A DNA stretch of 64,000 bases, taken from a virus. Position numbers and translations under genes: made by a program. The notes beneath the pieces were generated by a model. That model searched no databases. It saw only the letters and a list, made by a program, of their open reading frames with translations, and was not told the origin of the DNA. This document shows, one piece after another, positions 41,599 to 63,549 of the stretch (the stretch's first letter is position 1; each line of letters begins with the position of its first letter). Where the stretch lies: positions 1 to 64,000 of the IMG/VR virus record IMGVR_UViG_3300032020_000845; one strand, given 5' to 3'.

Positions 41599-42066
41599 AT
41601 GAAATGTTGTTTTGGAGGACTGTGTAGAGAATCTGAATATGTTAGTGTTGGAAAGGGCGTGTGCAGTTTTTTAATATTAGATTTAGGAGTATTACATCGT
41701 ACTGTTAGTATGGAGAAAGATGAATTGGTGTTAGATTTTACATCTCTTCTTTTGTTGTTGGAATTTATATTGTTAAATCCTTATTTATTTAAACATTTTT
41801 ATTCTCTTGAAGTATATGGATCTAATAATGATGTTTTAAAATATCTTAAACAAAATAAAGTTCCTGCGAAAATTAGATCTTTGAAGGAAATGGTGATGTC
41901 TTTTATTAAACAAAACCCATATGTAAAAGTTAGTTTTTTGAAAATTTCTAAAGAAACGAATCCGATATTTTTTAAAGTTGCTAGTTTGCCAATTGATATG
42001 AAAATGTCAGAATATGTTAAAAGTTTGATGGAGGTTATTAGTGATCCAAATAAAAATCAGGAATAA
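41599..42066 (+). CDS. Degenerate RNase HI-fold protein
   Basis: Pattern CFGG..G.G..SFLI / LEVYGS / V.F..I.KE.N aligns by eye with RNase HI, but the acidic catalytic residues are missing. Confidence 0.4.
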   Translation: MKCCFGGLCRESEYVSVGKGVCSFLILDLGVLHRTVSMEKDELVLDFTSLLLLLEFILLNPYLFKHFYSLEVYGSNNDVLKYLKQNKVPAKIRSLKEMVMSFIKQNPYVKVSFLKISKETNPIFFKVASLPIDMKMSEYVKSLMEVISDPNKNQE

Positions 42067-42652
42067 TTTTTTTGAAATTCCAAAGATACCTCTCCAAAAT
42101 GATTCATTAACTAAGATTGATTGGCTTGCCAATCAATTTTACAAAACAGAAGATAGCTACTATATAAATACACTAATTTGTATTGCTATTCCATATATGC
42201 GAAAGGTTGCAAGTTCTTTTTGTAGAAATACTGAAGATGCTAAAGAGTTATGCCAAGAATTAAAAATAGATTTATTAAGATTACTTCGTAAATGGAAACC
42301 AAAAGAGAAAATGCGTTTTAATTATATAATGCGGCGGCAATTTTATAATTTTTCTTGTAATTTTATTAGAAAATTAAAGAAAGTTTCATTTGTTGATGTT
42401 GAATTATTTCAACAGGAATTGCTAGACACAAATGATTTTATGAAAGATTATGAAATAACAGATTTAGTTAAAAAATTGCTGAGTTTAGTGGATGATAAAA
42501 CAAAACAAATTCTTACTTTATTTTTAAGTGGTGTTACCACTTATGAGCAAATAGGAAAAGAACTTAGTGTCACTGGTGTAACGGTACGTAATAGAATATT
42601 AGGATGTAAACCTTTGATATTAAAAATATTAAGAGAGGGAAAAAATGTATAA
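42041..42652 (+). CDS. Phage sigma-70/ECF-like RNA polymerase sigma factor
   Basis: Region 2 (VASSF..DAKELCQE...KW.P) and region 4 HTH (TYEQIGKELSVTGVTVRNR). Confidence 0.75.
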   Translation: MIQIKIRNNFFEIPKIPLQNDSLTKIDWLANQFYKTEDSYYINTLICIAIPYMRKVASSFCRNTEDAKELCQELKIDLLRLLRKWKPKEKMRFNYIMRRQFYNFSCNFIRKLKKVSFVDVELFQQELLDTNDFMKDYEITDLVKKLLSLVDDKTKQILTLFLSGVTTYEQIGKELSVTGVTVRNRILGCKPLILKILREGKNV

Positions 42653-43055
42653 AGTCGTTAAAGAAGTTAAATGGGACGCCGCTCATAGATTATTAAATTA
42701 TGATGGTCTCTGTTCACATATTCATGGTCATTCTTTCAGAGCTCTTTTTACATATGAGTGTAGTATTCTTAATAAAGATGGGATGGCTATTGATTTTAAT
42801 ACCATAAAAAATAAAATTCAAAAATGGGTTGATGAGTATTGGGATCATGCTTTTATGTTAAATAGTAAAGATCCTCTTGTAAAGATTTTAAGTAAATATG
42901 AGGATAGAATTTGGATTATGCAAGGAAATCCAACGGCTGAAAATATGGCTAATTTTTTATTTATGAAATTTAAGTATACATTTCTAGAAGTTAATTTAAG
43001 GAGTGTTGAAGTTTTTGAAGGGCCGAAATCAAGTGCTATATATGAAGAAGGATAA
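42645..43055 (+). CDS. queD: 6-carboxytetrahydropterin synthase
   Basis: DAAHRL..Y.G.C..IHGHS, GMAIDF, WDH, NPTAENMA, VFE. Confidence 0.93.
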   Translation: MYKVVKEVKWDAAHRLLNYDGLCSHIHGHSFRALFTYECSILNKDGMAIDFNTIKNKIQKWVDEYWDHAFMLNSKDPLVKILSKYEDRIWIMQGNPTAENMANFLFMKFKYTFLEVNLRSVEVFEGPKSSAIYEEG

Positions 43056-43065
43056 GGAGAAAATA

Positions 43066-43866
43066 ATGATCGAAGAACAATTACCTGATATTCAAGCGTC
43101 AAAAGATATTCGTGAAGTGCATTTACATCGAGTTGGAGTTGAAAATGTTAGTTTTCCTATATTAGTAACAAAAAAAGAAAAAAGACAGTATCAAACAACT
43201 CAAGCAACTATTTCAATGTATGGAGATCTTGAAAAAGAAATAAAGGGAATTGATATGAGTCGTTTTCTTGAGGTTCTAATGCAATATCGTTATAAAGTAA
43301 TGAATTCAAAGAAATTAAAAAAGTTTTTAAAAGAATTAAAAAGCAGACTTAAAACAAGAGATGCTTATGTTGTTGTTAGTTTTAAATATTTCATTCCCAA
43401 AGAATCTCCTATAAAAAAAGTGAAAGGAATTCAAGGGTATGATTGTTCTTTTGTTGCTCGTTTGACTTCCGACAAATATGATTTTTATCTTGAGGTAGCT
43501 GTTCCAATAACTACTTTATGCCCTTGTAGTAAAGAAATAAGTAAGTATGGGGCTCATAATCAAAGAGCGGTTGTAATAGCTCGTATAACATTTTCAGAAA
43601 AGCCTTTGTGGATTGAAGATATTGTTTCTTTATTAGGATCAATGGGCAGTTGTGATATTTATCCTGTGTTAAAAAGACCGGATGAAAAATTTGTTACAGA
43701 AAAAGCATTTAAAAATCCAAAGTTTGTGGAGGACGTTGCTCGAGATACTGCTCTTGCGTTGAATAAAATATCTAGTGTTGAAGGATACAGCATTAAGGTA
43801 ATGTCATTTGAAAGTATCCATACACACAATGCTGTTGCATATTTTAAAAAAAATTGGAGTTTTTAG
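43066..43866 (+). CDS. folE2: GTP cyclohydrolase I, type IB
   Basis: PDIQ, KGIDMSRF, TLCPCSKEIS.YGAHNQR, LKRPDEKFVT, NPKFVED, ESIHTHNA. Confidence 0.93.
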   Translation: MIEEQLPDIQASKDIREVHLHRVGVENVSFPILVTKKEKRQYQTTQATISMYGDLEKEIKGIDMSRFLEVLMQYRYKVMNSKKLKKFLKELKSRLKTRDAYVVVSFKYFIPKESPIKKVKGIQGYDCSFVARLTSDKYDFYLEVAVPITTLCPCSKEISKYGAHNQRAVVIARITFSEKPLWIEDIVSLLGSMGSCDIYPVLKRPDEKFVTEKAFKNPKFVEDVARDTALALNKISSVEGYSIKVMSFESIHTHNAVAYFKKNWSF

Positions 43867-44492
43867 TGGAAGTACCTTCTATTTTTTTTGGAGTGGATGA
43901 AGTAGGTGTAGGTTGTTTAGCTGGTCCTGTTGTTGCGGGAGCTGTTGTATGGCAGAATTCTTATGCTTGGAATATAGTGGGTTTAAATGATTCTAAAAAA
44001 TTAACTTTGAAACAGCGCGAAAAAGTTTTTCAGCAATGTAAGGAATTAAATATTGTATTTGCAACAGGATCTGCTGATGTTAATGAAATAGAAAAATTGA
44101 ACATTTATCATGCAACTAGATTAGCAATGAAAAGGGCAATCGATTTAGTGATTCCTCGAAGGCCAACAATTCCAAGTATTGGTTTGATTGATGGCAAGGG
44201 ATATATAGAAGGTTTAGAGATAGAACAAAAATGGATAGTAAAAGGAGATGAAAAAGAGCCCGCGATTATGATGGCCTCTATTGTTGCTAAAGTATTGAGA
44301 GATAGATATATAAAAAGTTTGGTTGATCAGTTTCCTGAATATGAAGTATATGGTTGGAGAACTAATATTGGTTATGGAACAAAAAAACATCTTGAAGCAA
44401 TTAAAAAATATGGTTTAACGCCTTTTCATAGGAAAACTTTTCAACCAATTAAGCAATGGTTGGAGGAGGGAATAATAAATGCCGCAAACTAA
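43866..44492 (+). CDS. rnhB: Ribonuclease HII
   Basis: GVDEVG.G.LAGPV, DSKKL, IDG, KGD, ASIVAKV.RD, GYGT..H, HRKTF; likely GTG start at 43866. Confidence 0.93.
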   Translation: MEVPSIFFGVDEVGVGCLAGPVVAGAVVWQNSYAWNIVGLNDSKKLTLKQREKVFQQCKELNIVFATGSADVNEIEKLNIYHATRLAMKRAIDLVIPRRPTIPSIGLIDGKGYIEGLEIEQKWIVKGDEKEPAIMMASIVAKVLRDRYIKSLVDQFPEYEVYGWRTNIGYGTKKHLEAIKKYGLTPFHRKTFQPIKQWLEEGIINAAN

Positions 44493-45210
44493 AACATTAG
44501 ATATTAGTGAGATTTTTTGTTCGATACAAGGAGAAGGAATTTATACTGGAGTTCCCTCAATTTTTATAAGACTTCAGGGATGTTCTAGTCATTGTATTTG
44601 GTGTGATACTAATTTTGGGCAAAATAAAAACTTAGGGAAAAGAATGACAAATGAAGAAATTTTGAACAAAATTTCTGAATATAAATATATAAATCATATT
44701 GTAATCACAGGAGGAGAACCGACTGAACAAATGGAAGGTTTAAGAGCTTTTTTATCCTTCCTTTCGGCTCATTTTTTTGTAACCGTTGAAACAAATGGAA
44801 CAATAAATCCTTTTGATTTTGACCCTTATGCTTACGTAGATAAATGGGTTAGTTTATGGTCTGTAAGTCCAAAACTTCAATCAGCAAAAGCAAAACGTAA
44901 GTATAATTTTTGTGCTATAGAGGCTATGCTTTTGCATAAAGCTCAGTTGAAGTTTGTAATTAGTGATGAGAAAGATATTGAAGAAATGTTTGAGTTATTA
45001 CAAAGGTTTATGAAGGTTCCCCCTGTAATTATTGTTCAACCAAACGGACAGGAAGAAGGAAAGACATGTTCTCCTGAGGAATATTCAAAACGAGCTGATT
45101 GGTTAGTTAATATTTTGTTGGATAAATATATTGATTATTTTGATAAATATGATATTAGGATAATGCTTCAAACACATAAAGTAATTTGGGGCAATAAAAG
45201 AGGAATGTAA
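44479..45210 (+). CDS. queE: 7-carboxy-7-deazaguanine synthase (radical SAM)
   Basis: SIQGEG, FIRLQGC...C.WCDT, TGGEP, ETNG, SVSPK, QTHK. Confidence 0.93.
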   Translation: MPQTKTLDISEIFCSIQGEGIYTGVPSIFIRLQGCSSHCIWCDTNFGQNKNLGKRMTNEEILNKISEYKYINHIVITGGEPTEQMEGLRAFLSFLSAHFFVTVETNGTINPFDFDPYAYVDKWVSLWSVSPKLQSAKAKRKYNFCAIEAMLLHKAQLKFVISDEKDIEEMFELLQRFMKVPPVIIVQPNGQEEGKTCSPEEYSKRADWLVNILLDKYIDYFDKYDIRIMLQTHKVIWGNKRGM

Positions 45211-45689
45211 TGAAAACAGAAAAAATATCTTGGAACTATTATTTTCAATTAATTAATAAGCTTATAGAAATAATATCGGTTCATGTGGAAGAAAAGTTTG
45301 ATCTTGTTGTGGGTATTTCGCGTGGAGGTCTTATTCCTGCTATGCTGATGTCTCAAGATTGGAATGTTCCTTTAGATGTAATAGTAACAAGATTTTATGA
45401 CAAAAAGAACCAGCGCTCTATGTTGAAAGTTGGAAATCCTTCATACTTATGTTTTAAAGATATTAATTTTGATAGTAAAATATTAATTGTTGATGACCTT
45501 GTTGATAGTGGAAAGACTATGAAGGCTGTTGTTGATTTATACAAAAAAAAGGGTTTCAAGAACATTAGGACAGCTGTATTGATTTATAAACGAAGTTCTG
45601 AATTTGACCCAAGATATTTTGCCGCTGGTGCAGATGAAGATACTTGGATTGAGTTTCCATATGAACGATTTGAAGGAGATATAAAATGA
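45210..45689 (+). CDS. Type I phosphoribosyltransferase (Gpt-like)
   Basis: GISRGGLIPA, LIVDDLVDSGKT, WIEFPYE. Confidence 0.9.
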   Translation: MKTEKISWNYYFQLINKLIEIISVHVEEKFDLVVGISRGGLIPAMLMSQDWNVPLDVIVTRFYDKKNQRSMLKVGNPSYLCFKDINFDSKILIVDDLVDSGKTMKAVVDLYKKKGFKNIRTAVLIYKRSSEFDPRYFAAGADEDTWIEFPYERFEGDIK

Positions 45690-46372
45690 GTGAGGCAATT
45701 TTTCTTTTAAGTGGTGGTTTAGATTCTACTACATTGTTTGTTTTTATATTAGAAAAAGGTTGGGCGCTTTATCCTTTAAGTATTAATTATGGTCAAAAAC
45801 ATTCTGTTGCAGAAATAGCTTCAGCAACGCGCCTTTGGGCAAGATATCAACATAAATATGGAGAAAAGAAAGTAGGAGACTTAAAAATTTTAAATTTTAA
45901 TTTATCTCAAATAGGACATAGTGCATTAACTGATAAAAATTGGAAAGTTCCAAACAATATGAAAGATCAAATTAAAACTGTAGTTCCTTTTCGAAATACT
46001 ATGTTAATGACATTAGCTGCTGCTTATGGAGAGTCTTTAGGTTTAAGTCCTATAAATATTTTTATGACTCCTGTAAAAGAAGATTTTGCGTCATATAGAG
46101 ATTGTCGTAAACCTTTCTTTACTTGTTTAGAAAAAACATTAAGTTTAGGATCTACTTATGGCGTAGATGTTCACATTTATACACCGTTTGTTGAAAACAC
46201 AAAAGCAGAAATTATTGATATAGGTACTAAATTGGATGTTCCATATCATTTAACTTATTCTTGTTATGAAGGAACTCAACCCTCTTGTGGTAAATGTCCT
46301 GCGTGTATTGAAAGATTAGAAGCATTTAAAGCAAATGGTTTATCTGATCCTTTAGAATATAGAAAGGAGTAA
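45686..46372 (+). CDS. queC: 7-cyano-7-deazaguanine synthase
   Basis: LSGGLDS, YGQKH, VPFRN, YRDCR, TYSCY...CGKCPAC. Confidence 0.93.
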   Translation: MSEAIFLLSGGLDSTTLFVFILEKGWALYPLSINYGQKHSVAEIASATRLWARYQHKYGEKKVGDLKILNFNLSQIGHSALTDKNWKVPNNMKDQIKTVVPFRNTMLMTLAAAYGESLGLSPINIFMTPVKEDFASYRDCRKPFFTCLEKTLSLGSTYGVDVHIYTPFVENTKAEIIDIGTKLDVPYHLTYSCYEGTQPSCGKCPACIERLEAFKANGLSDPLEYRKE

Positions 46373-46376
46373 AGTT

Positions 46377-46940
46377 ATGAAATTTAAATTTTTGGATAAA
46401 GAAATAAAATATGATGGATCTCAATTGCATTCTCATTTTAATTATGAGAATGGTCTTGAAGGGAATAGCATTTCTTGTTTTTTTGGGCCTGCGGAAGTTA
46501 AAGAACATTTGGTAGATTGCGAAGATAAATTAAAAAATGATTTTATTAATAGTGCATATATGATGCATTTTATAATTGAAATTTTTGAGGCTTCTTTGAG
46601 AGAAGCAGTTGTATGGCAAAGATTATTTATTGCTCAAATTGCCGCTTTTTTAAAGAAATGTTGTTTGGTGTCTCATGTTGCTTATCGAGGAGATGATATT
46701 TTTATTGATAATAAAAAATTGTCTGTTTCGATTGCAACAAAATCTCCAGTTTCATGTCTTATTCACGTTGGATTAAATATTGAGGTAGGAGATGAATGTC
46801 CTGTTCTTGCTGTTGGATTTAATGATTTTGATGATTATGGGTATGCTTTAAGAGACGTTGCTCATATGTTGATGGCTGCCTTTGTGGAAGAATTTGAGGA
46901 TATTCAGAAAGCTTGTTATAAGGTGAAAGGAGTACAATGA
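46377..46940 (+). CDS. DUF366 family protein (biotin/lipoate ligase-like fold)
   Basis: YDGSQL, F.GPAEV.EHLVD.ED, MHFIIE, QRL, R.GDD...KKLSVSIAT, H.GLN. Confidence 0.75.
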   Translation: MKFKFLDKEIKYDGSQLHSHFNYENGLEGNSISCFFGPAEVKEHLVDCEDKLKNDFINSAYMMHFIIEIFEASLREAVVWQRLFIAQIAAFLKKCCLVSHVAYRGDDIFIDNKKLSVSIATKSPVSCLIHVGLNIEVGDECPVLAVGFNDFDDYGYALRDVAHMLMAAFVEEFEDIQKACYKVKGVQ

Positions 46941-47299
46941 AGCCTTTTATAGTTGCAATAGATTTTGATGGAACAATCGTTGAAGATAAATATCCTAATA
47001 TTGGTCCTTTAAAGGAAAATGCTGTTTCTTGTATTAAATTATTGAAAGAATTGGGGTGTTATATTATAGTAACATCTTGTCGCACAAGTCCAAATAGAAC
47101 TTCAAGTGTAACTGAGAGAAGTTTACAAAGACAAATTATGCAAAAATTTTTAAGAGAAAATGATATTCCTTATGATTGGGTTGATGATGGTACTCAAGGT
47201 AAAGTAGTTGCTGACATTTATGTTGACGATCGTGCTATTAGATTTGAAAATAATTGGGATGAAATTGTTAGAATAATAAATTTAATGTTAGGAGAGTAA
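46937..47299 (+). CDS. Small HAD-superfamily phosphatase
   Basis: AIDFDGT ... K..ADIYVDDRA. Confidence 0.85.
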   Translation: MKPFIVAIDFDGTIVEDKYPNIGPLKENAVSCIKLLKELGCYIIVTSCRTSPNRTSSVTERSLQRQIMQKFLRENDIPYDWVDDGTQGKVVADIYVDDRAIRFENNWDEIVRIINLMLGE

Positions 47300-47300
47300 A

Positions 47301-47780
47301 ATGTTAAATTGGTTTTTAAATTTTCTTTATAAATTTACATTTCCAAGAAATATAAAATGCTCATTGATTCGTTCAGACGCTAAAATTCCAACTCAAGCGT
47401 ATGAATATGACGCTGGGTGGGATTTATATGCAGTTGAAGATATTATAATTCCTTTTGGTTGGTGTAAAGAAGTACATACTGGGGTATGTTTTGAAATTCC
47501 TCCTGGGTGGGTAGGTATAGTTTCTACTCGTAGTAGTTATGGAAAAAAGGGCAGAGCTGCACACCATGGAATTATTGACCCTGGATATAGGAATGAGGTG
47601 TCTATTTTTATTCGAAATAGTGTTCAGTATACACATAAAGTGGAATCTATTAACATTTTAAAAGGGGATAAGGTTGCCCAAATTCTTTTTTTTAAATTAC
47701 CGAAAGTCAATTTAATTCAAGTTGGGCGGCTTTCGGAAAGTGAAAGAGGAAAGAAAGGACACGGCAGTAGTGGTAGATAA
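47301..47780 (+). CDS. dut: Trimeric dUTPase
   Basis: DAGWDL, RSS, GIIDPGYR, GDKVAQ, RGKKGHGSSG. Confidence 0.92.
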   Translation: MLNWFLNFLYKFTFPRNIKCSLIRSDAKIPTQAYEYDAGWDLYAVEDIIIPFGWCKEVHTGVCFEIPPGWVGIVSTRSSYGKKGRAAHHGIIDPGYRNEVSIFIRNSVQYTHKVESINILKGDKVAQILFFKLPKVNLIQVGRLSESERGKKGHGSSGR

Positions 47781-48140: not shown

Positions 48141-48165
48141 TTTGTGTATAATATATTAAAATGAA
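48141..48165 (+). promoter_or_regulatory. Conserved phage promoter motif
   Basis: tttgtgtataatatattaaaatgaa upstream of the lipoprotein island. Confidence 0.75.
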
Positions 48166-48184
48166 TGGGAAAAGAGGTGAAGAA

Positions 48185-48481
48185 ATGAAGAAGTTAATTT
48201 TGTTATTCGTTGGTCTTTTGATTGTATTATTCAGTTTTAGTTGTTCCAAATGTTCCACCTGTCCTGGAGGAGATATGTGTGGAGATGTTAATGGTGATGG
48301 TCAAGTAAACCGGAAGGATTGGATTTCTTTGTCGAATTATCTATTTAATGGCGGTTCTATGGTTTGCCTAACCTGCGCAGATGTCAATTCTGATCATAAG
48401 ATAGACATGGAGGACGCTACTATTTTGTCACATTATTTGCTTGATGGAGAACCCGTACTTAATTGCTCGTTAGAAGAATAA
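48185..48481 (+). CDS. Lipoprotein with a dockerin type I domain
   Basis: Signal plus FSFSC lipobox; CGDVNGDGQVN..D...L.NYLF.GG ... ADVNSDHKID..DA..L..YL. Confidence 0.85.
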   Translation: MKKLILLFVGLLIVLFSFSCSKCSTCPGGDMCGDVNGDGQVNRKDWISLSNYLFNGGSMVCLTCADVNSDHKIDMEDATILSHYLLDGEPVLNCSLEE

Positions 48482-49086: not shown

Positions 49087-49115
49087 ATATTAAAATGAAA
49101 GAAAAGGAGGATAAA

Positions 49116-50177
49116 ATGTTAAAGTTTAGTTCTCTGGTATTAGTGTTGTTATTGATGTTTATTCCTAATTGTTCTAAAAATCCGGTTATTTCTCAGGTTG
49201 AACCGAAAACAGATATAACAACTTACAGGTTGATTACTGATCCATACATGAGAATCGAAACTGATACTGTTTTTGTTATCGATACTATTTTCACTACAGA
49301 CACTGCTATCGTTGCTATTGATACAATTGCTACAATGAGAGGGGATCTAGATTTAGATGGAGATGTTGATTGGGACGATTGGGGTAGCTTAAGTGAGCTT
49401 TTAACGTATCCCAAAGTACCCTATGGAAAAAACATAGATGTGAATGGAGATGGTAGAATAGATAATGGCGACTTAGTGTATTTGGGAAATTACTTGCAAG
49501 GAACGGTCATGGTCTACATCTATGACACGACTATTATTTTCGACACGGCCTTTGTTCCAGATACTGTATTTCAGTCATACGTTGTTGTTATTGTTGATAC
49601 TATTTTTATAGCTGATACCGCTTTTGTTATTGATACTGTTATTAATACTACTTTGATTGCTACAATGCGTGGAGATTTAGATTTAGATGGAGATGTAGAT
49701 TGGGATGATTACAGTGATTTAAGTGAACTCTTATCTTATCCTAACGTACCTTATATAAAAAGTGCGGATGTAAATGGTGATAATAAAGTAAATAATAACG
49801 ATCTGGTATATCTAGGGAAATATTTACAAGGAACAGGACCAGCACCAATATCGGATACGTCCTTTGTTTATGATACTATTTTTATTCCAGATACGATATT
49901 TGTTTTTGATACTACTTTCATTTCAGATACGTCCTTTGTTTTAGACACTGTTTTTACGATTGACACTGTTATAGTTGTTGATACTGTTTTTAGTGTTATC
50001 GATACTATTATCGTAGAAGGGCAAGCCCCGATCTCTGATATGATTTTTATATACGATACTACCTTTACTCAGAACGTGAGGTTTGTTCTAGACACTCTTT
50101 TTGTCGCAGACACTATTTTTACATATGAGAAGAATGTTCATAGTATAAAGGATAAGAAAGAAAGACTCAGGAGATAA
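49116..50177 (+). CDS. Lipoprotein with two dockerin domains and Asp-Thr hexapeptide repeats
   Basis: Signal plus Cys (IPNC-SK); two copies of RGDLDLDGDVD..D...L...DVNGD..(I/V)...DLVYL..YL; 22 DT dipeptides. Confidence 0.85.
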   Translation: MLKFSSLVLVLLLMFIPNCSKNPVISQVEPKTDITTYRLITDPYMRIETDTVFVIDTIFTTDTAIVAIDTIATMRGDLDLDGDVDWDDWGSLSELLTYPKVPYGKNIDVNGDGRIDNGDLVYLGNYLQGTVMVYIYDTTIIFDTAFVPDTVFQSYVVVIVDTIFIADTAFVIDTVINTTLIATMRGDLDLDGDVDWDDYSDLSELLSYPNVPYIKSADVNGDNKVNNNDLVYLGKYLQGTGPAPISDTSFVYDTIFIPDTIFVFDTTFISDTSFVLDTVFTIDTVIVVDTVFSVIDTIIVEGQAPISDMIFIYDTTFTQNVRFVLDTLFVADTIFTYEKNVHSIKDKKERLRR

Positions 50178-51096: not shown

Positions 51097-53613
51097 ATGA
51101 GTTGTAATAAGTGTTCTTTATTTAAAAATTGTAAACATCCTTGTGTTCAAGGCGTTGGTTCTATTCCTGCAAATATAATGTTAATTGGAGAGGCCCCGGG
51201 CGAAGAAGAAGACAAGAGAGGCACTCCTTTTATCGGACTTGCAGGTAAACGCCTTGATATTATTTTGAAGGAGGCTGGATTACATAGAAATGATTTATAC
51301 ATAAGTAATTTGGTAAAATGCAGACCTCCTAATAATAGAGACCCAGAACCTGAAGAAATAAAAGCTTGTTCTCCCTATCTCGAAAAAGAAATTAAAGAAG
51401 TAAAACCTAAAATTATTGTTCCTTTGGGAGACCCTGCTCTTCAATATATATTAGGTCTTGAATTAATTACAAAATATGCTGGAACAAGGTATTGGAGTGA
51501 AAAATATAATTGTTGGGTAATGCCTACTTTTCATCCCGCTTATATTTGTAGAATTTTGGGAATGCAGGGAGTAATGGTTGATCATTTAAAGAATGTTTTA
51601 GAATGGTTAAGAAATCCGGTAGAACCAGATCCTCCTAAATATGTTATTGTAAACACAATAGAAAAAGCTAAAACTCTTTTTGAGAGATTAAATAGTGTTG
51701 ATGCTTTTTCTTTTGATTTAGAAACAAGTGGTTTAAATTCTCGAAAGTATAAAATTTTATGTTGCAGTTTTTCTTGGAAGGAAGGAACCGGAGTTGTCCT
51801 TCCTATATTACAACAACATTGTGGAGAGTTTTGGGGATTAGAAGAAAAAAAATGGATAATGGAACAATTAAAAAAAGTATTAGAAAGCAACATTGGTAAA
51901 ATTGGACAGAATTTATCCTTTGATATTCAATTTTTAAAAACTTATGGAATTGAATTAAATAATTTTATGTCTGATACAATGCTCGCCCATCATCTTCTTG
52001 ATGAGAATGTGGGAAGGAAAGGACATGGATTAGACACTATGGTTCTTCGTTATTTTCCCCATATGGGAAAATATGATGAGAGACTATTAAAATATTTACC
52101 TACTAAAAATACTTCTTATGCAGTAATTCCAAATGATGTTCTTTGGAAATATTCTGCAACTGATGCTGACGCTACTTTTCGTTGTTATAAAAAGTTTAAC
52201 CCTGAACTTGAAAATCAAGGCCTTATGCCTTTGTTTACCAAAATTGTTATCCCTTTTCAAAAGGTTTTATTAGAAACTGAATATCATGGTGTAAAACTTG
52301 ATGTTAAACGTCTTAAAGAATTGGAAAAAGAATATTTAAAACGATTGAAAGAAATTGAAAAAGAATTTCGAACAACAAAAGTAGTTGGAATGGTAGAAAA
52401 AATATTATATAGTAAAGCAATAAATAAAATTGAAAAGCGGTATGATCTTTTGAAAACAAAGCCTAAAATGATAACTAAAGAAAAATATATACAAAAATAT
52501 ACAAAGCCTATTACATTTAATTTAAGATCGTCTCCGCATTTACAAATATTGTTATTTGATGTTCTTAAATTTAAACCTGTAAAAAAGACTAAAAAGGGGG
52601 GTCTTTCTACTGATAAAACTGTTTTGGATGAATTGTCAGAGATGTCTCCGGAATTAACTAAATTAAAAGAACATAGAGATTTAAGTAAACTTTATAGTAC
52701 TTATGTAGTAGGAATGCTTGAGAGGGTAGATGAAAATGAAAGAATTCATACGGATTATCATGTGGATGGTACTGTAACGGGTAGACTTTCAAGTACAAAT
52801 CCAAATCTTCAGAATATTCCGCGTGATAGTGATATTAAAGAATGTTTTATTGCTTCTCCTGGGTGTGTGTTAATAGAAATTGATTCAAAACAAGCTGAAT
52901 ATAGATGTTGGGCTCATTATTCTAATGATCCAAAAATGATTGCAACAATTAAGTCTGGAGTAGATGTTCATAACCAGATGGCTTCAGAGTGTTTTGGTAA
53001 GAAAATAGAAGAAGTTACAAAAGAAGAAAGACAAAAAGCGAAGGGGTCCGTTTTTGGGTTAATGTTTGGAAGAGGCTCTAAAAGTCTTGCAGCAGAACAC
53101 GAAATGACTGAAGAAGAAGCAGAACATATTAGGAGTGTGTTTTTTGATCGTTATCCTAAGGCAAAAGATTGGATATATGGAATTAAAAAAGTGGCCCAAA
53201 CCTATGGTAAAGTAACTAATGCTTTTGGACGAATTAGAAGACTTCCTGCAGCTCAAATTCCTTGGAGTGAGGATATGGAAAAACATGACAGAAAGGATAG
53301 AAGCGAAGCAATGCGCCAAGCTGTCAACTCTCCAATCCAATCGATGGCGTCTGATATTACTGCTTTAACTGCTTATCGTATATATAAAAAATTAAAACAA
53401 ATAAATAGTAAAACAAAATTAGTCCTTACTGTACATGATTCTTTAGTTTATGAAGTTCTGAAAGAAGAAAAAGATATTTTTATTCAAATAGTAAAGGAAG
53501 CCGTCTCTCGTAGTTATAATACATTAAGTGGCCCTATCAAAGTTCCAATAGAATTTGATATTACTATCGGAGAAAGATGGAGAAAATTGGTAGAATTAAG
53601 CAAATATGTATAA
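51097..53613 (+). CDS. Family A DNA polymerase with N-terminal family-4 uracil-DNA glycosylase domain (SPO1-type)
   Basis: UDG: CNKC, IGEAPG.EED..G.PF.G.AG, VKCRPPNNRDP, TFHP. Exo: FDLETSG. Pol: TGRLSS..PNLQNIP, D..Q.E.R, NSPIQS, VHDS. Confidence 0.95.
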   Translation: MSCNKCSLFKNCKHPCVQGVGSIPANIMLIGEAPGEEEDKRGTPFIGLAGKRLDIILKEAGLHRNDLYISNLVKCRPPNNRDPEPEEIKACSPYLEKEIKEVKPKIIVPLGDPALQYILGLELITKYAGTRYWSEKYNCWVMPTFHPAYICRILGMQGVMVDHLKNVLEWLRNPVEPDPPKYVIVNTIEKAKTLFERLNSVDAFSFDLETSGLNSRKYKILCCSFSWKEGTGVVLPILQQHCGEFWGLEEKKWIMEQLKKVLESNIGKIGQNLSFDIQFLKTYGIELNNFMSDTMLAHHLLDENVGRKGHGLDTMVLRYFPHMGKYDERLLKYLPTKNTSYAVIPNDVLWKYSATDADATFRCYKKFNPELENQGLMPLFTKIVIPFQKVLLETEYHGVKLDVKRLKELEKEYLKRLKEIEKEFRTTKVVGMVEKILYSKAINKIEKRYDLLKTKPKMITKEKYIQKYTKPITFNLRSSPHLQILLFDVLKFKPVKKTKKGGLSTDKTVLDELSEMSPELTKLKEHRDLSKLYSTYVVGMLERVDENERIHTDYHVDGTVTGRLSSTNPNLQNIPRDSDIKECFIASPGCVLIEIDSKQAEYRCWAHYSNDPKMIATIKSGVDVHNQMASECFGKKIEEVTKEERQKAKGSVFGLMFGRGSKSLAAEHEMTEEEAEHIRSVFFDRYPKAKDWIYGIKKVAQTYGKVTNAFGRIRRLPAAQIPWSEDMEKHDRKDRSEAMRQAVNSPIQSMASDITALTAYRIYKKLKQINSKTKLVLTVHDSLVYEVLKEEKDIFIQIVKEAVSRSYNTLSGPIKVPIEFDITIGERWRKLVELSKYV

Positions 53614-56094: not shown

Positions 56095-56625
56095 ATGAAA
56101 ATTCTATTAGTAGGATCTCACGGAACTGGAAAATCTACTTTAGCAAAAGAAATTCAAAGAGTTTTTCCACCTCCTTTTTATATTATTGATAATATTCATC
56201 GTGATGCAAAAGCGAATGGATTTGAAATAAACAAAACTGATGATGTAATTAGCCAAATAGAAACGGTTCGAAGATATCTGCGAGAAATAGGAGTAAAGGA
56301 TAATTTTGTTTCTGTAGATAGTATAATACGACAAACCGCATATGCAATATGTAATAATTTACCCGAACCTGTTATTGGTTTAATGAAAGAGTTATGCTAT
56401 GTTGAAAGAGCTTATTTTGCAAATATTATTTTCTATTTTCCAATAGATTTTTCTTTAGTGAAAGATGGTATTAGAGATGAAGATATTGAGTTTCAAAAAA
56501 AGATTGATGTTGAGATTGTAAATTTGTTGAACATTTATTATTGGAATATGTGTCATACAGTAACAGGAACAGTTTCACAACGAAGTGATAAAGTTGTTAA
56601 AATACTTGAACTTTGTAAGAGGTAG
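56095..56625 (+). CDS. P-loop nucleotide kinase-like protein (AAA_28/NadR-like)
   Basis: GSHGTGKSTL; IFYFP..F.L..DG.R..D.EFQ..ID. Confidence 0.75.
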   Translation: MKILLVGSHGTGKSTLAKEIQRVFPPPFYIIDNIHRDAKANGFEINKTDDVISQIETVRRYLREIGVKDNFVSVDSIIRQTAYAICNNLPEPVIGLMKELCYVERAYFANIIFYFPIDFSLVKDGIRDEDIEFQKKIDVEIVNLLNIYYWNMCHTVTGTVSQRSDKVVKILELCKR

Positions 56626-57444
56626 ATGCAAGTGAAAGTTTGTCATATTGTTCCAACAAGTTATATTGAAGTTTGTAATCGAAACTCCTTTATGCATCTT
56701 TTAATTGCTCAAGAAGTTTTGAACAACGAAAAATATAGAGAAGCATATTTGGATAGAAGTTTGAAAGGGGATTTTCTTATAATGGATAATGGGGCATTTG
56801 AATATGGAGATGCTGCTTCTCTTGGAGATATTATTAAAGCTACAGAATTAGTTCAAGCACGTGAATTAGTTTTACCTGATTGTTATCTTGATGGAGGAGT
56901 AACTACTGTAAGAGTTATCAACGCTTTGAAAGCATTAATGAAATATAAATTATTAGAAAAGTTTAAAGAACCAATTTATTTAATGGCTGTTCCTCAGGGA
57001 AAAACAGAAAAGGAATATATGAAATGTTTTTCGGAAATATTGTCTATTGATGAAATTGCCACTATTGGATTTTCATATGGAGCAATAGGTAAATCATTTG
57101 AAGGATATAATCTCCCTCAATGTCTTTTAAGACCAATGGCGATTAGTTACTTAAATCAACATTTTGATTTAAAAAATTCAGGCAAAGATTTTCATTGTTT
57201 AGGTATTGGAGGACATCCTATTGAGATTAACTTTTTGAAACGTTTTGGATTTATTAGAAGTGTTGATTCTTCAAAAGCATTTGTATGTGCTGTAAAAGGG
57301 ATTGATATTACTAAAGTTTTACCAGCTCATTATATCTCTCCTGAAAGACCTGCAGATTACTTTGATATTCAGGTTTCAGAAAATATTGTAACACTTGCTT
57401 TGAAAAATATAAAAACGATGGAAAAGTATAATAATGAGGAGTAA
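56626..57444 (+). CDS. TGT-fold (DpdA-like) deazaguanine transglycosylase
   Basis: MDNGAFE (cf. DSGGF), LPD, VPQG, HCLG and RSVDSS occur in TGT order. Confidence 0.65.
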   Translation: MQVKVCHIVPTSYIEVCNRNSFMHLLIAQEVLNNEKYREAYLDRSLKGDFLIMDNGAFEYGDAASLGDIIKATELVQARELVLPDCYLDGGVTTVRVINALKALMKYKLLEKFKEPIYLMAVPQGKTEKEYMKCFSEILSIDEIATIGFSYGAIGKSFEGYNLPQCLLRPMAISYLNQHFDLKNSGKDFHCLGIGGHPIEINFLKRFGFIRSVDSSKAFVCAVKGIDITKVLPAHYISPERPADYFDIQVSENIVTLALKNIKTMEKYNNEE

Positions 57445-63222: not shown

Positions 63223-63549
63223 ATGAGAATTGAATTAAAAGAATCTGAAAAATTATATCCTTTAGGAACTGAGGATTTAGATACTACTCTTCACTTAACT
63301 ACTTGGATAGGAACCGGGACAATGAAATGGTTTTTTGCAGTTATGGTAGGAGATGCATTTTCTCGTCCTTATTGGGACGATTCTAAACGTTCAAATACAA
63401 CCCCTGTCCATAAGGTTTTAGCAATTTTTGATAATAAAGAAGAAGCAAGAAGTTTTATGTTGAATAATATACAACCAGATATTTATTTGAGTTTTGGATG
63501 GATAATAACAGACGAAAAAGAAAATGCAAATACTGTCGAAAAAAAGTAA
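63223..63549 (+). CDS. Hypothetical protein
   Basis: AAGGAG RBS. Confidence 0.5.
   Translation: MRIELKESEKLYPLGTEDLDTTLHLTTWIGTGTMKWFFAVMVGDAFSRPYWDDSKRSNTTPVHKVLAIFDNKEEARSFMLNNIQPDIYLSFGWIITDEKENANTVEKK

What the first reader, a model, noticed from the sequence alone, without database searches (positions are those of the whole stretch)
42645..47780. preQ0 operon carrying a phosphoribosyltransferase: possible pre-replicative 7-deazaguanine genome substitution
Seen: queD-folE2-rnhB-queE-PRTase-queC-DUF366-HAD-dut in one tightly coupled run, with no queF, queF-L or gat-queC. Known: FolE/QueD/QueE/QueC make preQ0, which phages put into DNA to resist restriction, usually through DpdA base exchange. 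Inference: a Gpt-like PRTase wedged between queE and queC, together with the HAD phosphatase, the kinase at 56095 and the HD protein at 63524, could route preQ0 into the dNTP pool or recycle displaced guanine. RNase HII in the same operon would fit clean-up of misincorporated ribo-analogues.
Basis: partly seen in the sequence, partly recalled or inferred. Interest (0 to 1): 0.8.

Follow-up and report, generated by a model that had tools for sequence, protein, structure and literature searches.

The report
Phage deazaguanine operon with overlooked transglycosylase

Summary
The gene run is real: QueD, FolE2, RNase HII, QueE, a purine-type PRTase, QueC, DUF366, a small HAD phosphatase and dUTPase. 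They are co-oriented and overlap or abut at 42645-47780.

The premise that no DpdA is present is wrong. The ORF at 56626-57444, directly after the kinase at 56095, is a DpdA3-family transglycosylase. It is homologous to phiST CGPG_00065 and immuto gp206, and its model has a TGT fold. This is therefore a DpdA3-type 7-deazaguanine DNA system on the preQ0 branch, with no QueF.

Of 80 viral loci encoding relatives of this PRTase, 50 carry QueE nearby, against 0.56% of isolate phage records. phiST and immuto, both fully substituted phages, have the PRTase too, plus a small P-loop kinase next to DpdA3 and a MazG-like gene. Published models do not mention these genes.

I favour guanine removal and recycling (guanine to GMP to GTP to preQ0), which would pull DNA base exchange to completion. 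A nucleotide-pool route, as with TubE in tubercidin synthesis, is not excluded. No RNR is encoded here or in a 90%-complete relative.

DUF366 has a BPL/LplA-like ligase fold and is a QueC partner in phages, Bacteroidota and methanogens. This scan had already noted the DUF366-QueC and PRTase-que links on other DNA.

The parts
42041..42652 (+). Sigma-70-like factor whose end overlaps the queD start by 8 nt (context)
   Evidence: Weak Pfam Sigma70_r2/r4 hits; PHROG RNA polymerase sigma factor, 6.5e-13.
42645..43055 (+). QueD (6-carboxytetrahydropterin synthase)
   Evidence: PF01242, 101.5 bits; PHROG QueD-like, 3e-33; CxxxHGH motif present.
43003..43866 (+). FolE2 (GTP cyclohydrolase IB); likely true start at 43042 or 43066
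   Evidence: PF02649, 280.8 bits; NCBIfam FolE2 equivalog 257.6 bits, above its cut-off of 215; N-terminal translation.
43854..44492 (+). RNase HII
   Evidence: PF01351, 108.6 bits; NCBIfam NF000595 202 bits, above its cut-off of 167. Kept at the same place in L090 and L091.
44479..45210 (+). QueE (7-carboxy-7-deazaguanine synthase, radical SAM)
   Evidence: PF04055 and Fer4_12; PHROG QueE-like, 8e-46; several NCBIfam QueE models at 1e-27 to 1e-31, all below their cut-offs.
45210..45689 (+). Type I purine phosphoribosyltransferase (Gpt/6-oxopurine-PRT-like)
   Evidence: PF00156, 87.8 bits. Best NCBIfam hit is xanthine PRT at 63.8 bits, below its cut-off of 138. Nearest PDB entries are 1vdm (3e-33), Sulfolobus GpT-2/GpT-1, and E. 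coli XGPRT (1e-17). PRPP motif ILIVDDLVDSGKT and the C-terminal TWIEFPYE motif are conserved. Linked to que genes in 50 of 80 viral loci.
45686..46372 (+). QueC (7-cyano-7-deazaguanine synthase), single domain
   Evidence: PF06508, 179.3 bits; TIGR00364 146.3 bits against a cut-off of 150.3.
46377..46940 (+). DUF366 protein with a BPL/LplA/LipB-like ligase fold; a conserved QueC partner
   Evidence: PF04017, 173 bits. AF2 model pLDDT 93.9. 2ddz at Z 26.8; LipB and biotin protein ligases at Z 12-13. Next to que genes in 21 of 25 viral loci. Immediately after QueC in 31 of 31 Bacteroidota loci.
46937..47299 (+). Small HAD-type phosphatase (BT0820-like), substrate unknown
   Evidence: NCBIfam NF046079, 57.4 bits, below its cut-off of 165. 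PDB 2obb, 2e-9. PHROG 1238, 6e-22. Kept at the same position in L090 and L091 only.
47301..47780 (+). dUTPase-family (trimeric) nucleotide pyrophosphatase
   Evidence: PF00692, 83.8 bits; PHROG dUTPase, 1.5e-40.
51097..53613 (+). Family A DNA polymerase with an N-terminal UDG-superfamily domain and a 3'-5' exonuclease domain (context: the replicative polymerase lies between the operon and DpdA3)
   Evidence: PF00476 332 bits, PF03167 117.5 bits, PF01612 102 bits.
56095..56625 (+). Small P-loop kinase (AAA_28 / 'thymidylate kinase' PHROG) that abuts DpdA3
   Evidence: PHROG 2107 thymidylate kinase, 7e-19. AAA_28, 26.4 bits against a cut-off of 27. Walker A motif GSHGTGKS, and BLASTP 6e-8 to the immuto 'TMK'. 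Adjacency to DpdA3 is kept in L090, L091 and L096. phiST CGPG_00066, next to its DpdA3, is AAA_18.
56626..57444 (+).
   Evidence: Hit by immuto gp206 at 1.2e-7; BLASTP 6e-11. tblastn hits phiST CGPG_00065, which is the DpdA3 of PMC10516641. PHROG 20335, 8e-14. AF2 pLDDT 94.3, pTM 0.91. The Foldseek PDB top 50 are all TGT/ArcTGT, best E 2.4e-8, prob 1.0. Invariant residues: D54-N55, D85, P123-G125, H190-L192-G193, D214.

Best explanation
This is a DpdA3-type phage system for replacing guanine in phage DNA with a 7-deazaguanine, on the preQ0 branch.

FolE2, QueD, QueE and QueC make preQ0 from GTP. DUF366 probably assists at or after the QueC step. The DpdA3 transglycosylase at 56626-57444 installs the base in place of G.

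The PRTase, together with the small P-loop kinase abutting DpdA3, most likely removes and recycles the guanine that the exchange releases: guanine plus PRPP gives GMP, then GDP, then GTP, which feeds FolE2 again. This would pull a reversible base exchange towards complete substitution and pay back the GTP cost of making the base.

Shown here: gene identities, the DpdA3 homology and fold, and the conserved co-occurrence of PRTase, kinase and DUF366 with que genes.

Inferred: the substrate of the PRTase and the kinase, what DpdA3 acts on, and the final base (dPreQ0 or a derivative).

My confidence that this is a DpdA3-type deazaguanine DNA system is about 0.85. My confidence in the guanine-recycling role is about 0.4. 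The figure given is for the whole statement.
For: - DpdA3 is present.
- The preQ0 pathway is complete, with a genuine QueD motif and no QueF.
- The PRTase is closest to 6-oxopurine/xanthine-guanine PRTases. It keeps the full PRPP loop, including the third Asp (D99), and the C-terminal Trp motif.
- PRTase relatives co-occur with QueE in 50 and FolE in 49 of 80 viral loci. The base rate is 284 of 50,697 isolate phage records with a QueE-like match.
- Among isolates, the PRTase is found in phiST-like and immuto phages. These carry DpdA3 and are reported as completely modified (PMC10516641). It was not among the hits for DpdA1/DpdA2 phages such as 9g or CAjan.
- A base-consuming PRTase would compete with a base-exchanging DpdA for preQ0. 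A guanine-consuming one would cooperate with it (inference).
- No RNR is encoded in this record or in the 90%-complete relative G001.
- In the one complete genome that looked DpdA-less (G004), a 340-aa ORF right after QueF aligns on all five DpdA3 motifs.
Against: - DpdA3 activity has never been reconstituted. The authors could not obtain dDG in E. coli with DpdL plus DpdA3, and they say other enzymes may be needed.
- Simple base exchange on DNA does not require a kinase abutting DpdA3, nor the MazG-like or dUTPase-like pyrophosphatases that recur in phiST, immuto and here.
- A PRTase that uses a 7-deazaguanine exists: TubE is specific for CDG.
- Most PRTase-linked viral clusters stop at CDG, with no QueC. 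This matches TubE's substrate.
- DpdA3 proteins are small and acidic (pI 4.6-6.8), with no Zn subdomain. That is not what one expects of a DNA-binding enzyme, although this is weak evidence.
- The record is a fragment: CheckV estimates 55% completeness.
Confidence: 0.45

Rival explanations
1. Pre-replicative route. The PRTase condenses preQ0 (or CDG) with PRPP to give a 7-deazaguanine ribonucleotide. The P-loop kinase and host enzymes (RNR, NDK) convert it to the dNTP, and the phage PolA incorporates it. DpdA3 would only top up or repair remaining G.
For: - TubE is a CDG-specific PRPP transferase, and toyocamycin clusters pair a PF00156 PRTase with a HAD phosphatase next to preQ0 genes. This operon has the same pairing.
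- The PRTase-que linkage is widespread.
- The kinase next to DpdA3 is conserved in three lineages, and phiST has PRTase, a DNMK-like kinase and RNR clustered together.
- Complete substitution is usual for pool-level systems (established knowledge: T4 hmC, the S-2L Z base).
Against: - A DpdA3 is present in this phage and in every PRTase-bearing system examined in detail.
- No phage RNR is encoded here or in the 90%-complete relative.
- No dGTP-specific hydrolase was identified. The HD protein is of unknown family and lies far from the operon.
- The PRTase shows no departure from canonical 6-oxopurine PRTase motifs.
- A HAD phosphatase would undo the nucleotide rather than advance it.
Confidence: 0.2
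2. DpdA3 works on mononucleotides rather than on DNA. It would swap guanine for preQ0 on dGMP or dGTP. The abutting kinase then rephosphorylates the product, the PRTase salvages the released guanine, and the polymerase builds fully substituted DNA.
For: - The kinase-DpdA3 adjacency is conserved in the window, L090, L091, L096, phiST (CGPG_00066 is AAA_18) and immuto.
- The DpdA3 family is short (250-273 aa), acidic and lacks the TGT Zn subdomain.
- No RNR is needed under this scheme.
- MazG-like or dUTPase-like pyrophosphatases that could supply dNMPs recur in these clusters.
- The heterologous DNA-modification assay failed.
Against: - All characterised TGT-superfamily enzymes, including bacterial DpdA and phage DpdA1, act on polynucleotides (PMC6884629, PMC10164549; established knowledge).
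- Nothing here tests the substrate.
- Acidity and small size are weak indicators.
Confidence: 0.1
3. There is no DNA modification. The operon is an auxiliary metabolic module that boosts host preQ0/queuosine for tRNA and general purine salvage during infection.
For: - Hutinet et al. raised this possibility for phages with que genes but no DpdA.
- The QueC-DUF366 pair is also a normal part of cellular preQ0 operons.
- PRTase relatives also occur in viral loci with no que genes in view (30 of 80 loci, many of them short).
Against: - A DpdA3 homologue is encoded, and the authors treat DpdA as the signature of DNA modification.
- The operon sits in the replication module next to RNase HII, dUTPase, PolA and a RecA/UvsX-like gene.
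- Isolates with the same gene set have fully modified DNA.
Confidence: 0.07

Closest known systems
[quoted passage not shown] 2023 (PMC10516641)
   Same: - DpdA3 homologue, 25-26% identity, same fold class.
- FolE/QueD/QueE core.
- A homologous PRTase. In immuto it lies between QueE and FolE.
- A small P-loop kinase beside DpdA3.
- An NTP pyrophosphatase in the cluster.
- PolA nearby.
   Different: - FolE2 here instead of FolE type I.
- QueC is present, but there is no QueF, DpdN or DpdL, so the predicted product is preQ0 or a derivative, not fdPreQ1 or dDG.
- DUF366 and a HAD phosphatase are present here and are not seen in the phiST and immuto stretches examined. tblastn with DUF366 finds no phiST or immuto record.
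- dUTPase here instead of MazG-like.
- No RNR here, whereas phiST has one.
TubE / ToyH phosphoribosyltransferases of tubercidin and toyocamycin biosynthesis (PMC6112128; bioRxiv 10.64898/2026.04.15.718813)
   Same: - A PF00156 purine-type PRTase encoded inside a GTP-to-CDG/preQ0 gene cluster.
- A HAD-type phosphatase as companion in toyocamycin clusters.
   Different: - No GMP reductase, adenylosuccinate synthetase or lyase, UbiD decarboxylase, regulator or transporter here.
- A nucleic-acid transglycosylase is present here and absent from the antibiotic clusters.
- Sequence relationship to TubE/ToyH could not be tested.
- The product there is a free nucleoside antibiotic, not DNA.
E. coli xanthine-guanine PRTase (Gpt) and archaeal 6-oxopurine PRTases (PDB 1a95, 1vdm, 4z1o, 4trb)
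   Same: - Same fold family and length.
- Same PRPP loop and C-terminal aromatic motif.
- These are the best sequence matches among solved structures.
   Different: - Scores fall below every NCBIfam equivalog cut-off.
- It is encoded by a phage within a deazaguanine operon.
- Its substrate is untested.
Pool-level base replacement in phages (T4 hmC; S-2L/PhiVC8 Z-genome with PurZ, MazZ, DatZ)
   Same: - The outcome expected for DpdA3 phages is complete substitution.
- A nucleotide pyrophosphatase, a small kinase and an own polymerase are all present.
   Different: - No identified enzyme makes the modified deoxynucleotide.
- No identified dGTP-specific hydrolase.
- A transglycosylase is present.

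Membership tests
DpdA3-type phage 7-deazaguanine DNA modification system | Encodes a DpdA3-family (distant TGT) transglycosylase | tested here: met
   Window 56626-57444. Homology to immuto gp206 and phiST CGPG_00065. High-confidence model with the top 50 PDB hits all TGT/ArcTGT.
DpdA3-type phage 7-deazaguanine DNA modification system | Catalytic aspartates of the TGT superfamily retained | tested here: inconclusive
   D54, D85 and D214 are invariant in 17 homologues. They lie in DNG, PD and DS motifs resembling the TGT DSGG motif and the motif around the nucleophile Asp. No residue-level superposition on a solved TGT was made.
DpdA3-type phage 7-deazaguanine DNA modification system | Phage-encoded synthesis of the 7-deazaguanine base (FolE, QueD, QueE, with or without QueC) | tested here: met
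   All four genes are present, and QueD carries the CxxxHGH motif.
DpdA3-type phage 7-deazaguanine DNA modification system | 7-deazaguanine actually present in virion DNA | not testable with these tools
   This is an uncultured IMG/VR record. It needs LC-MS/MS of DNA.
6-oxopurine (xanthine/guanine/hypoxanthine) phosphoribosyltransferase | Type I PRT fold with the PRPP-binding loop (acidic pair followed by D-[ST]-G-x-T) | tested here: met
   PF00156 at 87.8 bits against a cut-off of 26.3. ILIVDDLVDSGKT has V94, D95, D99, G101 and T103 invariant. 1vdm at 3e-33 and XGPRT at 1e-17.
6-oxopurine (xanthine/guanine/hypoxanthine) phosphoribosyltransferase | Reaches a curated equivalog score for Gpt or Hpt | tested here: not met
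   The best is NF006613 xanthine PRT at 63.8 bits against a cut-off of 138.
6-oxopurine (xanthine/guanine/hypoxanthine) phosphoribosyltransferase | Activity on guanine, xanthine or hypoxanthine | not testable with these tools
   Needs an enzyme assay.
7-deazapurine PRTases of nucleoside-antibiotic pathways (TubE/ToyH) | PF00156 PRTase encoded within a CDG/preQ0 synthesis cluster | tested here: met
   The gene lies between queE and queC. The linkage recurs in 50 of 80 viral loci.
7-deazapurine PRTases of nucleoside-antibiotic pathways (TubE/ToyH) | Companion tailoring enzymes (GMP reductase, adenylosuccinate synthetase/lyase or a UbiD decarboxylase) | tested here: not met
   None of the ORFs scanned with Pfam between 41077 and 64132 matches these families. 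Small ORFs and the rest of the record were not scanned for them. Only a HAD phosphatase is shared.
7-deazapurine PRTases of nucleoside-antibiotic pathways (TubE/ToyH) | Closer in sequence to TubE/ToyH than to Gpt/Hpt | not tested
Pool-level (pre-replicative) base-replacement system | Phage-encoded route from ribonucleotide to deoxynucleotide (RNR) or direct synthesis of the modified dNMP | tested here: not met
   No PF02867 or PF13597 hit in G000 or in the 90%-complete relative G001. A host RNR could substitute.
Pool-level (pre-replicative) base-replacement system | Hydrolase that removes the canonical dNTP (here dGTP) | tested here: inconclusive
   A dUTPase-family protein and an HD protein of unknown PHROG are present. 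Their specificity is unknown.
DUF366 (PF04017) | Full-length match above the Pfam gathering score | tested here: met
   173.1 bits against a cut-off of 29.9, covering profile positions 1-184 of 184. 2ddz at Z 26.8.

The most novel reading that the evidence does not exclude
In DpdA3 phages, complete G replacement is achieved at the nucleotide level and not by base exchange on finished DNA. There are two possible forms. In one, the operon's PRTase makes a 7-deazaguanine nucleotide, as TubE does. In the other, DpdA3 itself swaps the base on dGMP or dGTP, with the abutting kinase and the PRTase completing the cycle. Either form would overturn the published conclusion that insertion is post-replicative. 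It would also define a new pathway for building a non-canonical dNTP.
Probability: 0.28. Interest if true: 0.85.

Novelty: new variant of a known kind. Interest (0 to 1): 0.58.

Why it matters
DpdA3 phages are the only 7-deazaguanine phages with every G replaced. Yet DpdA3 has never been shown to work, and the published pathway contains no step that explains complete substitution.

This work shows that a purine PRTase, a small kinase beside DpdA3 and an NTP pyrophosphatase recur across divergent DpdA3 systems. That gives a short list of candidate 'missing enzymes' and two clear, testable models: a guanine sink and recycling loop, or nucleotide-level incorporation.

It also ties DUF366, a ligase-fold protein with a solved structure and no known function, to QueC in phages, Bacteroidota and methanogens. 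The preQ0 pathway was thought to be fully known, so this is a possible unrecognised component of it.

On the practical side, fully deazaguanine-substituted DNA resists many restriction enzymes. Knowing the minimal gene set matters for phage engineering in laboratory hosts and for making modified DNA.

Tried and rejected
- Megablast of the operon against isolate phages gave no match.
- Pfam TGT on the own record gave no match. This would have wrongly confirmed 'no DpdA'. Only the search with immuto DpdA3 found the gene.
I used the search for related loci instead.
- Literature searches for PRTase plus DpdA and for DUF366 plus deazaguanine returned nothing. The search for DUF366 alone only matched DUF3669. 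Crippen et al. 2019 is not held.
The single protein gave 4 loci.
- The only isolate 'phage' with DUF366 is Microcystis phage MaAM05. It carries the gene among bacterial housekeeping genes, so it is uninformative.
- The DpdA3 profile A2 found DpdA3 in only 5 of 34 longer PRTase records. Most of those are 4-40% complete, and the profile is biased to this subfamily. I do not read this as absence.
- G004 is a complete 236-kb phage carrying PRTase, DUF366 and a full preQ1 set. It looked DpdA-less with four queries. I rejected that reading after the 340-aa ORF behind QueF aligned on all five DpdA3 motifs.
- PDB sequence searches for the kinase and the HD protein gave nothing useful, and the HAD matched only structures of unknown function.
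- The promoter and terminator scan was no better than shuffles.
- The idea that RNase HII cleans up ribo-analogues was rejected as unnecessary. An RNase H beside the PRTase in phiST and the position in the replication module fit ordinary primer removal.

Full report
**1. What is in the sequence.**

The window is the first 64 kb of a 106,979-bp IMG/VR virus record. CheckV puts it at about 55% complete. GC is about 31%, and almost every gene is on the + strand.

From 42645 to 47780, nine ORFs follow each other with overlaps of 1-53 nt or gaps of at most 4 nt. Three profile libraries agree on their identities:
- QueD, with the CxxxHGH signature
- FolE2, above the NCBIfam equivalog cut-off
- RNase HII, above its cut-off
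- QueE
- a PF00156 purine-type PRTase
- single-domain QueC
- DUF366
- a small BT0820-like HAD phosphatase
- a trimeric-type dUTPase

A sigma-factor-like gene overlaps the start of queD.

No QueF is found in the record. None is found either in a 168-kb, 90%-complete close relative, G001. So the base made should be preQ0 or something derived from it.

**2. The missed gene.**

Pfam's TGT model indeed finds nothing. But the DpdA3 of Flavobacterium phage immuto_2-6A hits window 56626-57444 (BLASTP 6e-11).

The reverse search hits phiST at the gene CGPG_00065. That is the protein Cui et al. 2023 named DpdA3.

An AlphaFold model built on 17 homologues has pLDDT 94.3 and pTM 0.91. Its 50 best PDB matches are all tRNA-guanine or archaeosine transglycosylases, with best E 2.4e-8 and probability 1.0. 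The invariant residues are D54-N55, D85, P123-G125, H190-L192-G193 and D214.

The family A polymerase lies between it and the operon. This is the layout of phiST and immuto, where DpdA3 also lies near PolA.

The system is thus a member of the DpdA3 class. All published cases of that class are reported as completely substituted.

**3. Is the PRTase linked to que genes elsewhere?**

- Among isolate phages, tblastn finds the PRTase in the phiST group and the immuto group. In immuto it sits between QueE and FolE.
- In IMG/VR, more than 517 stretches encode a relative. Of the best 80 loci, 50 carry QueE, 49 FolE, 19 QueD and 27 DpdL within 10 kb. Only 2 carry QueC (with DpdL identified).
- Of the 21 loci with full flanks on both sides, 16 carry que genes.
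- For comparison, a QueE-like match occurs in 284 of 50,697 isolate phage records, or 0.56%.

The 80 loci are 26-39% identical to the query, so they are not simply close kin.

The open literature held here does not mention a PRTase in phage deazaguanine systems.

**4. Other conserved companions.**

*Kinase.* A small P-loop kinase sits beside DpdA3 in several lineages:
- in the window;
- in its kin L090 and L091, and in the divergent L096;
- in immuto, whose 'thymidylate kinase' is AAA_28 and matches the window kinase at BLASTP 6e-8;
- in phiST, where CGPG_00066, called unknown in the paper, scores as AAA_18.

*Other nucleotide genes.* phiST has an RNase H, the PRTase and a DNMK-like kinase in a row, close to its RNR. 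phiST and immuto each carry a MazG/PRA-PH-like pyrophosphatase in the cluster. The window has a dUTPase-family enzyme in that role. None of these genes is needed by the published scheme of base synthesis plus DpdA.

**5. What the PRTase most likely does.**

Its nearest solved relatives are 6-oxopurine PRTases: P. horikoshii 1vdm (3e-33), Sulfolobus GpT-1 and GpT-2, and E. coli XGPRT (1e-17). It keeps the whole PRPP loop and the C-terminal W-I-x-F-P-Y-E motif.

From my own knowledge of Gpt and HGPRT, the third Asp of that loop contacts purine N7 and the Trp stacks on the base. Keeping both fits an ordinary purine. But family-level similarity cannot exclude a deazapurine, because TubE was also annotated as a purine PRTase.

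The logic of the system favours guanine.
- A transglycosylase releases one guanine for every base it inserts.
- Removing that guanine irreversibly as GMP would pull the exchange forward.
- With the kinase, the GMP would return to GTP, which is the precursor of preQ0.
- A PRTase that consumed preQ0 would compete with DpdA3 for its substrate.
- This would also explain why, among the isolate hits, the PRTase turns up in completely substituting DpdA3 phages and not in DpdA1/DpdA2 phages.

I give this about 0.4.

**6. Why the nucleotide-pool reading is not dead.**
- TubE condenses CDG with PRPP.
- Toyocamycin clusters pair a PF00156 enzyme with a HAD phosphatase beside preQ0 genes, as this operon does.
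- Most PRTase-linked viral clusters stop at CDG.
- DpdA3 has not been reconstituted, and the authors suspect missing enzymes.
- The nucleoside of ADG was seen in infected cells.
- The DpdA3 family is short, acidic (pI 4.6-6.8) and lacks the Zn subdomain.

Against it:
- No RNR is encoded here or in G001.
- No dGTP hydrolase can be named.
- Every system I looked at closely does have a DpdA-like gene.

The complete 236-kb phage G004 carries QueD, PRTase, QueE, QueC, DUF366, FolE and QueF. It seemed DpdA-less with four queries. But the 340-aa ORF just after QueF aligns with the DpdA3 profile on the D-[SN]-G, D, Q-G, H-x-G and D-S motifs in order. The score is weak (E 0.12), and I could not fold it.

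**7. DUF366.**

The model (pLDDT 93.9) matches the P. horikoshii protein 2ddz at Z 26.8. After that it matches LipB, biotin protein ligases and LplA at Z 11-13, well above the unrelated rows.

Its genomic context is consistent:
- In 21 of 25 viral loci it lies among que genes. In one lineage it sits directly after DpdA3. In another it sits after QueC in a QueD-PRTase-QueE-QueC-DUF366-FolE-QueF array that is only 26-39% identical to the window's proteins.
- It is present in 134 of 301 sampled Bacteroidota genomes.
- In all 31 Bacteroidota loci fetched, QueC is immediately upstream on the same strand. In the three methanogen loci it lies beside QueE or QueD.

These loci are related to one another, so the count is not a set of independent events. 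Still, the link holds across phages, bacteria and archaea.

A carboxylate-adenylating fold next to QueC suggests a role at the CDG-to-ADG-to-preQ0 step or in a CDG-derived amide. That is inference only. Notes from this scan had already reported this partnership on other DNA, and I confirmed it independently here.

**8. The remaining claims.**
- RNase HII is conserved at this position in close kin. phiST has an RNase H next to its PRTase. Ordinary primer removal in a replication module is enough to explain it.
- The HD protein (63524-64132) belongs to a PHROG of unknown function. It lies among SbcCD-like nuclease genes and a primase. Nothing ties it to the operon.
- The HAD phosphatase is conserved only in close kin, and its substrate is unknown.

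**9. Verdict.**

This is a real operon in a known class of system (DpdA3-type). The gene combination is not described: FolE2 and QueC without QueF, plus DUF366, a HAD phosphatase and the PRTase.

But its central intuition holds: the PRTase belongs to the pathway. That points to an unsolved step in how these phages reach complete substitution.

The close homologues of the DpdA3 and PRTase proteins that carry a source name come from MAGs labelled Candidatus Cloacimonetes. This hints at the host but was not pursued.

Noticed in passing
window 46377-46940; L092-L100, L115-L148: DUF366 (PF04017, described by Pfam as an archaeal domain of unknown function) has a BPL/LplA/LipB-like ligase fold. It is a conserved neighbour of QueC, QueE or DpdA3 in phages, of QueC in Bacteroidota (31 of 31 loci; present in 134 of 301 genomes sampled), and of QueE or QueD in methanogens. 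It may be an unrecognised component of preQ0 synthesis.
   Followed up: partly
L100:13212-14234 (IMGVR_UViG_3300022664_000223, 236 kb, complete with terminal repeats): A 340-aa ORF directly after QueF has no Pfam or PDB sequence match. It aligns with the DpdA3 profile on all five conserved motifs (hhalign E 0.12). It is probably a further, very divergent DpdA subgroup, in a jumbo phage whose array is QueD, PRTase, QueE, QueC, DUF366, FolE, QueF.
   Followed up: partly
L004:3460-3939 (phiST CGPG_00066) and L001:9437-10045 (phiST CGPG_00044): Two phiST genes treated as unknown in the literature score as small P-loop kinases. CGPG_00066, beside DpdA3, is AAA_18 at 29.8 bits. CGPG_00044, beside the PRTase, is weakly DNMK/AAA_18. 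The immuto 'hydrolase' gp208 is PRA-PH/MazG-like.
   Followed up: partly
window 51097-53613: The family A DNA polymerase carries an N-terminal UDG-superfamily domain (PF03167, 117 bits) ahead of the 3'-5' exonuclease domain. What this domain does in a phage expected to have modified G is open.
   Followed up: no
window 48161-48481 and 49095-50177: Two ORFs with type I dockerin domains lie between the deazaguanine operon and the polymerase. Another note of this scan also flags them.
   Followed up: no
MW495066.1 108408-124971 (L089): The record named Microcystis phage MaAM05 carries glyS, fabI, fliM, secF and mtgA around its DUF366 gene. This stretch looks like bacterial DNA, so the record may be contaminated or misassembled.
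   Followed up: no
L005-L084: Several unannotated protein families recur beside the PRTase and que genes in viral contigs. Examples are a 146-aa family in 40 of 80 loci and a 361-aa family in 31 of 80, both without Pfam hits.
   Followed up: partly
window 56626-57444 and alignment A2: All 17 DpdA3-family proteins compared are acidic (pI 4.65-6.83), 251-273 aa long, and lack the CxCxxC...H zinc site of tRNA-guanine transglycosylases.
   Followed up: partly
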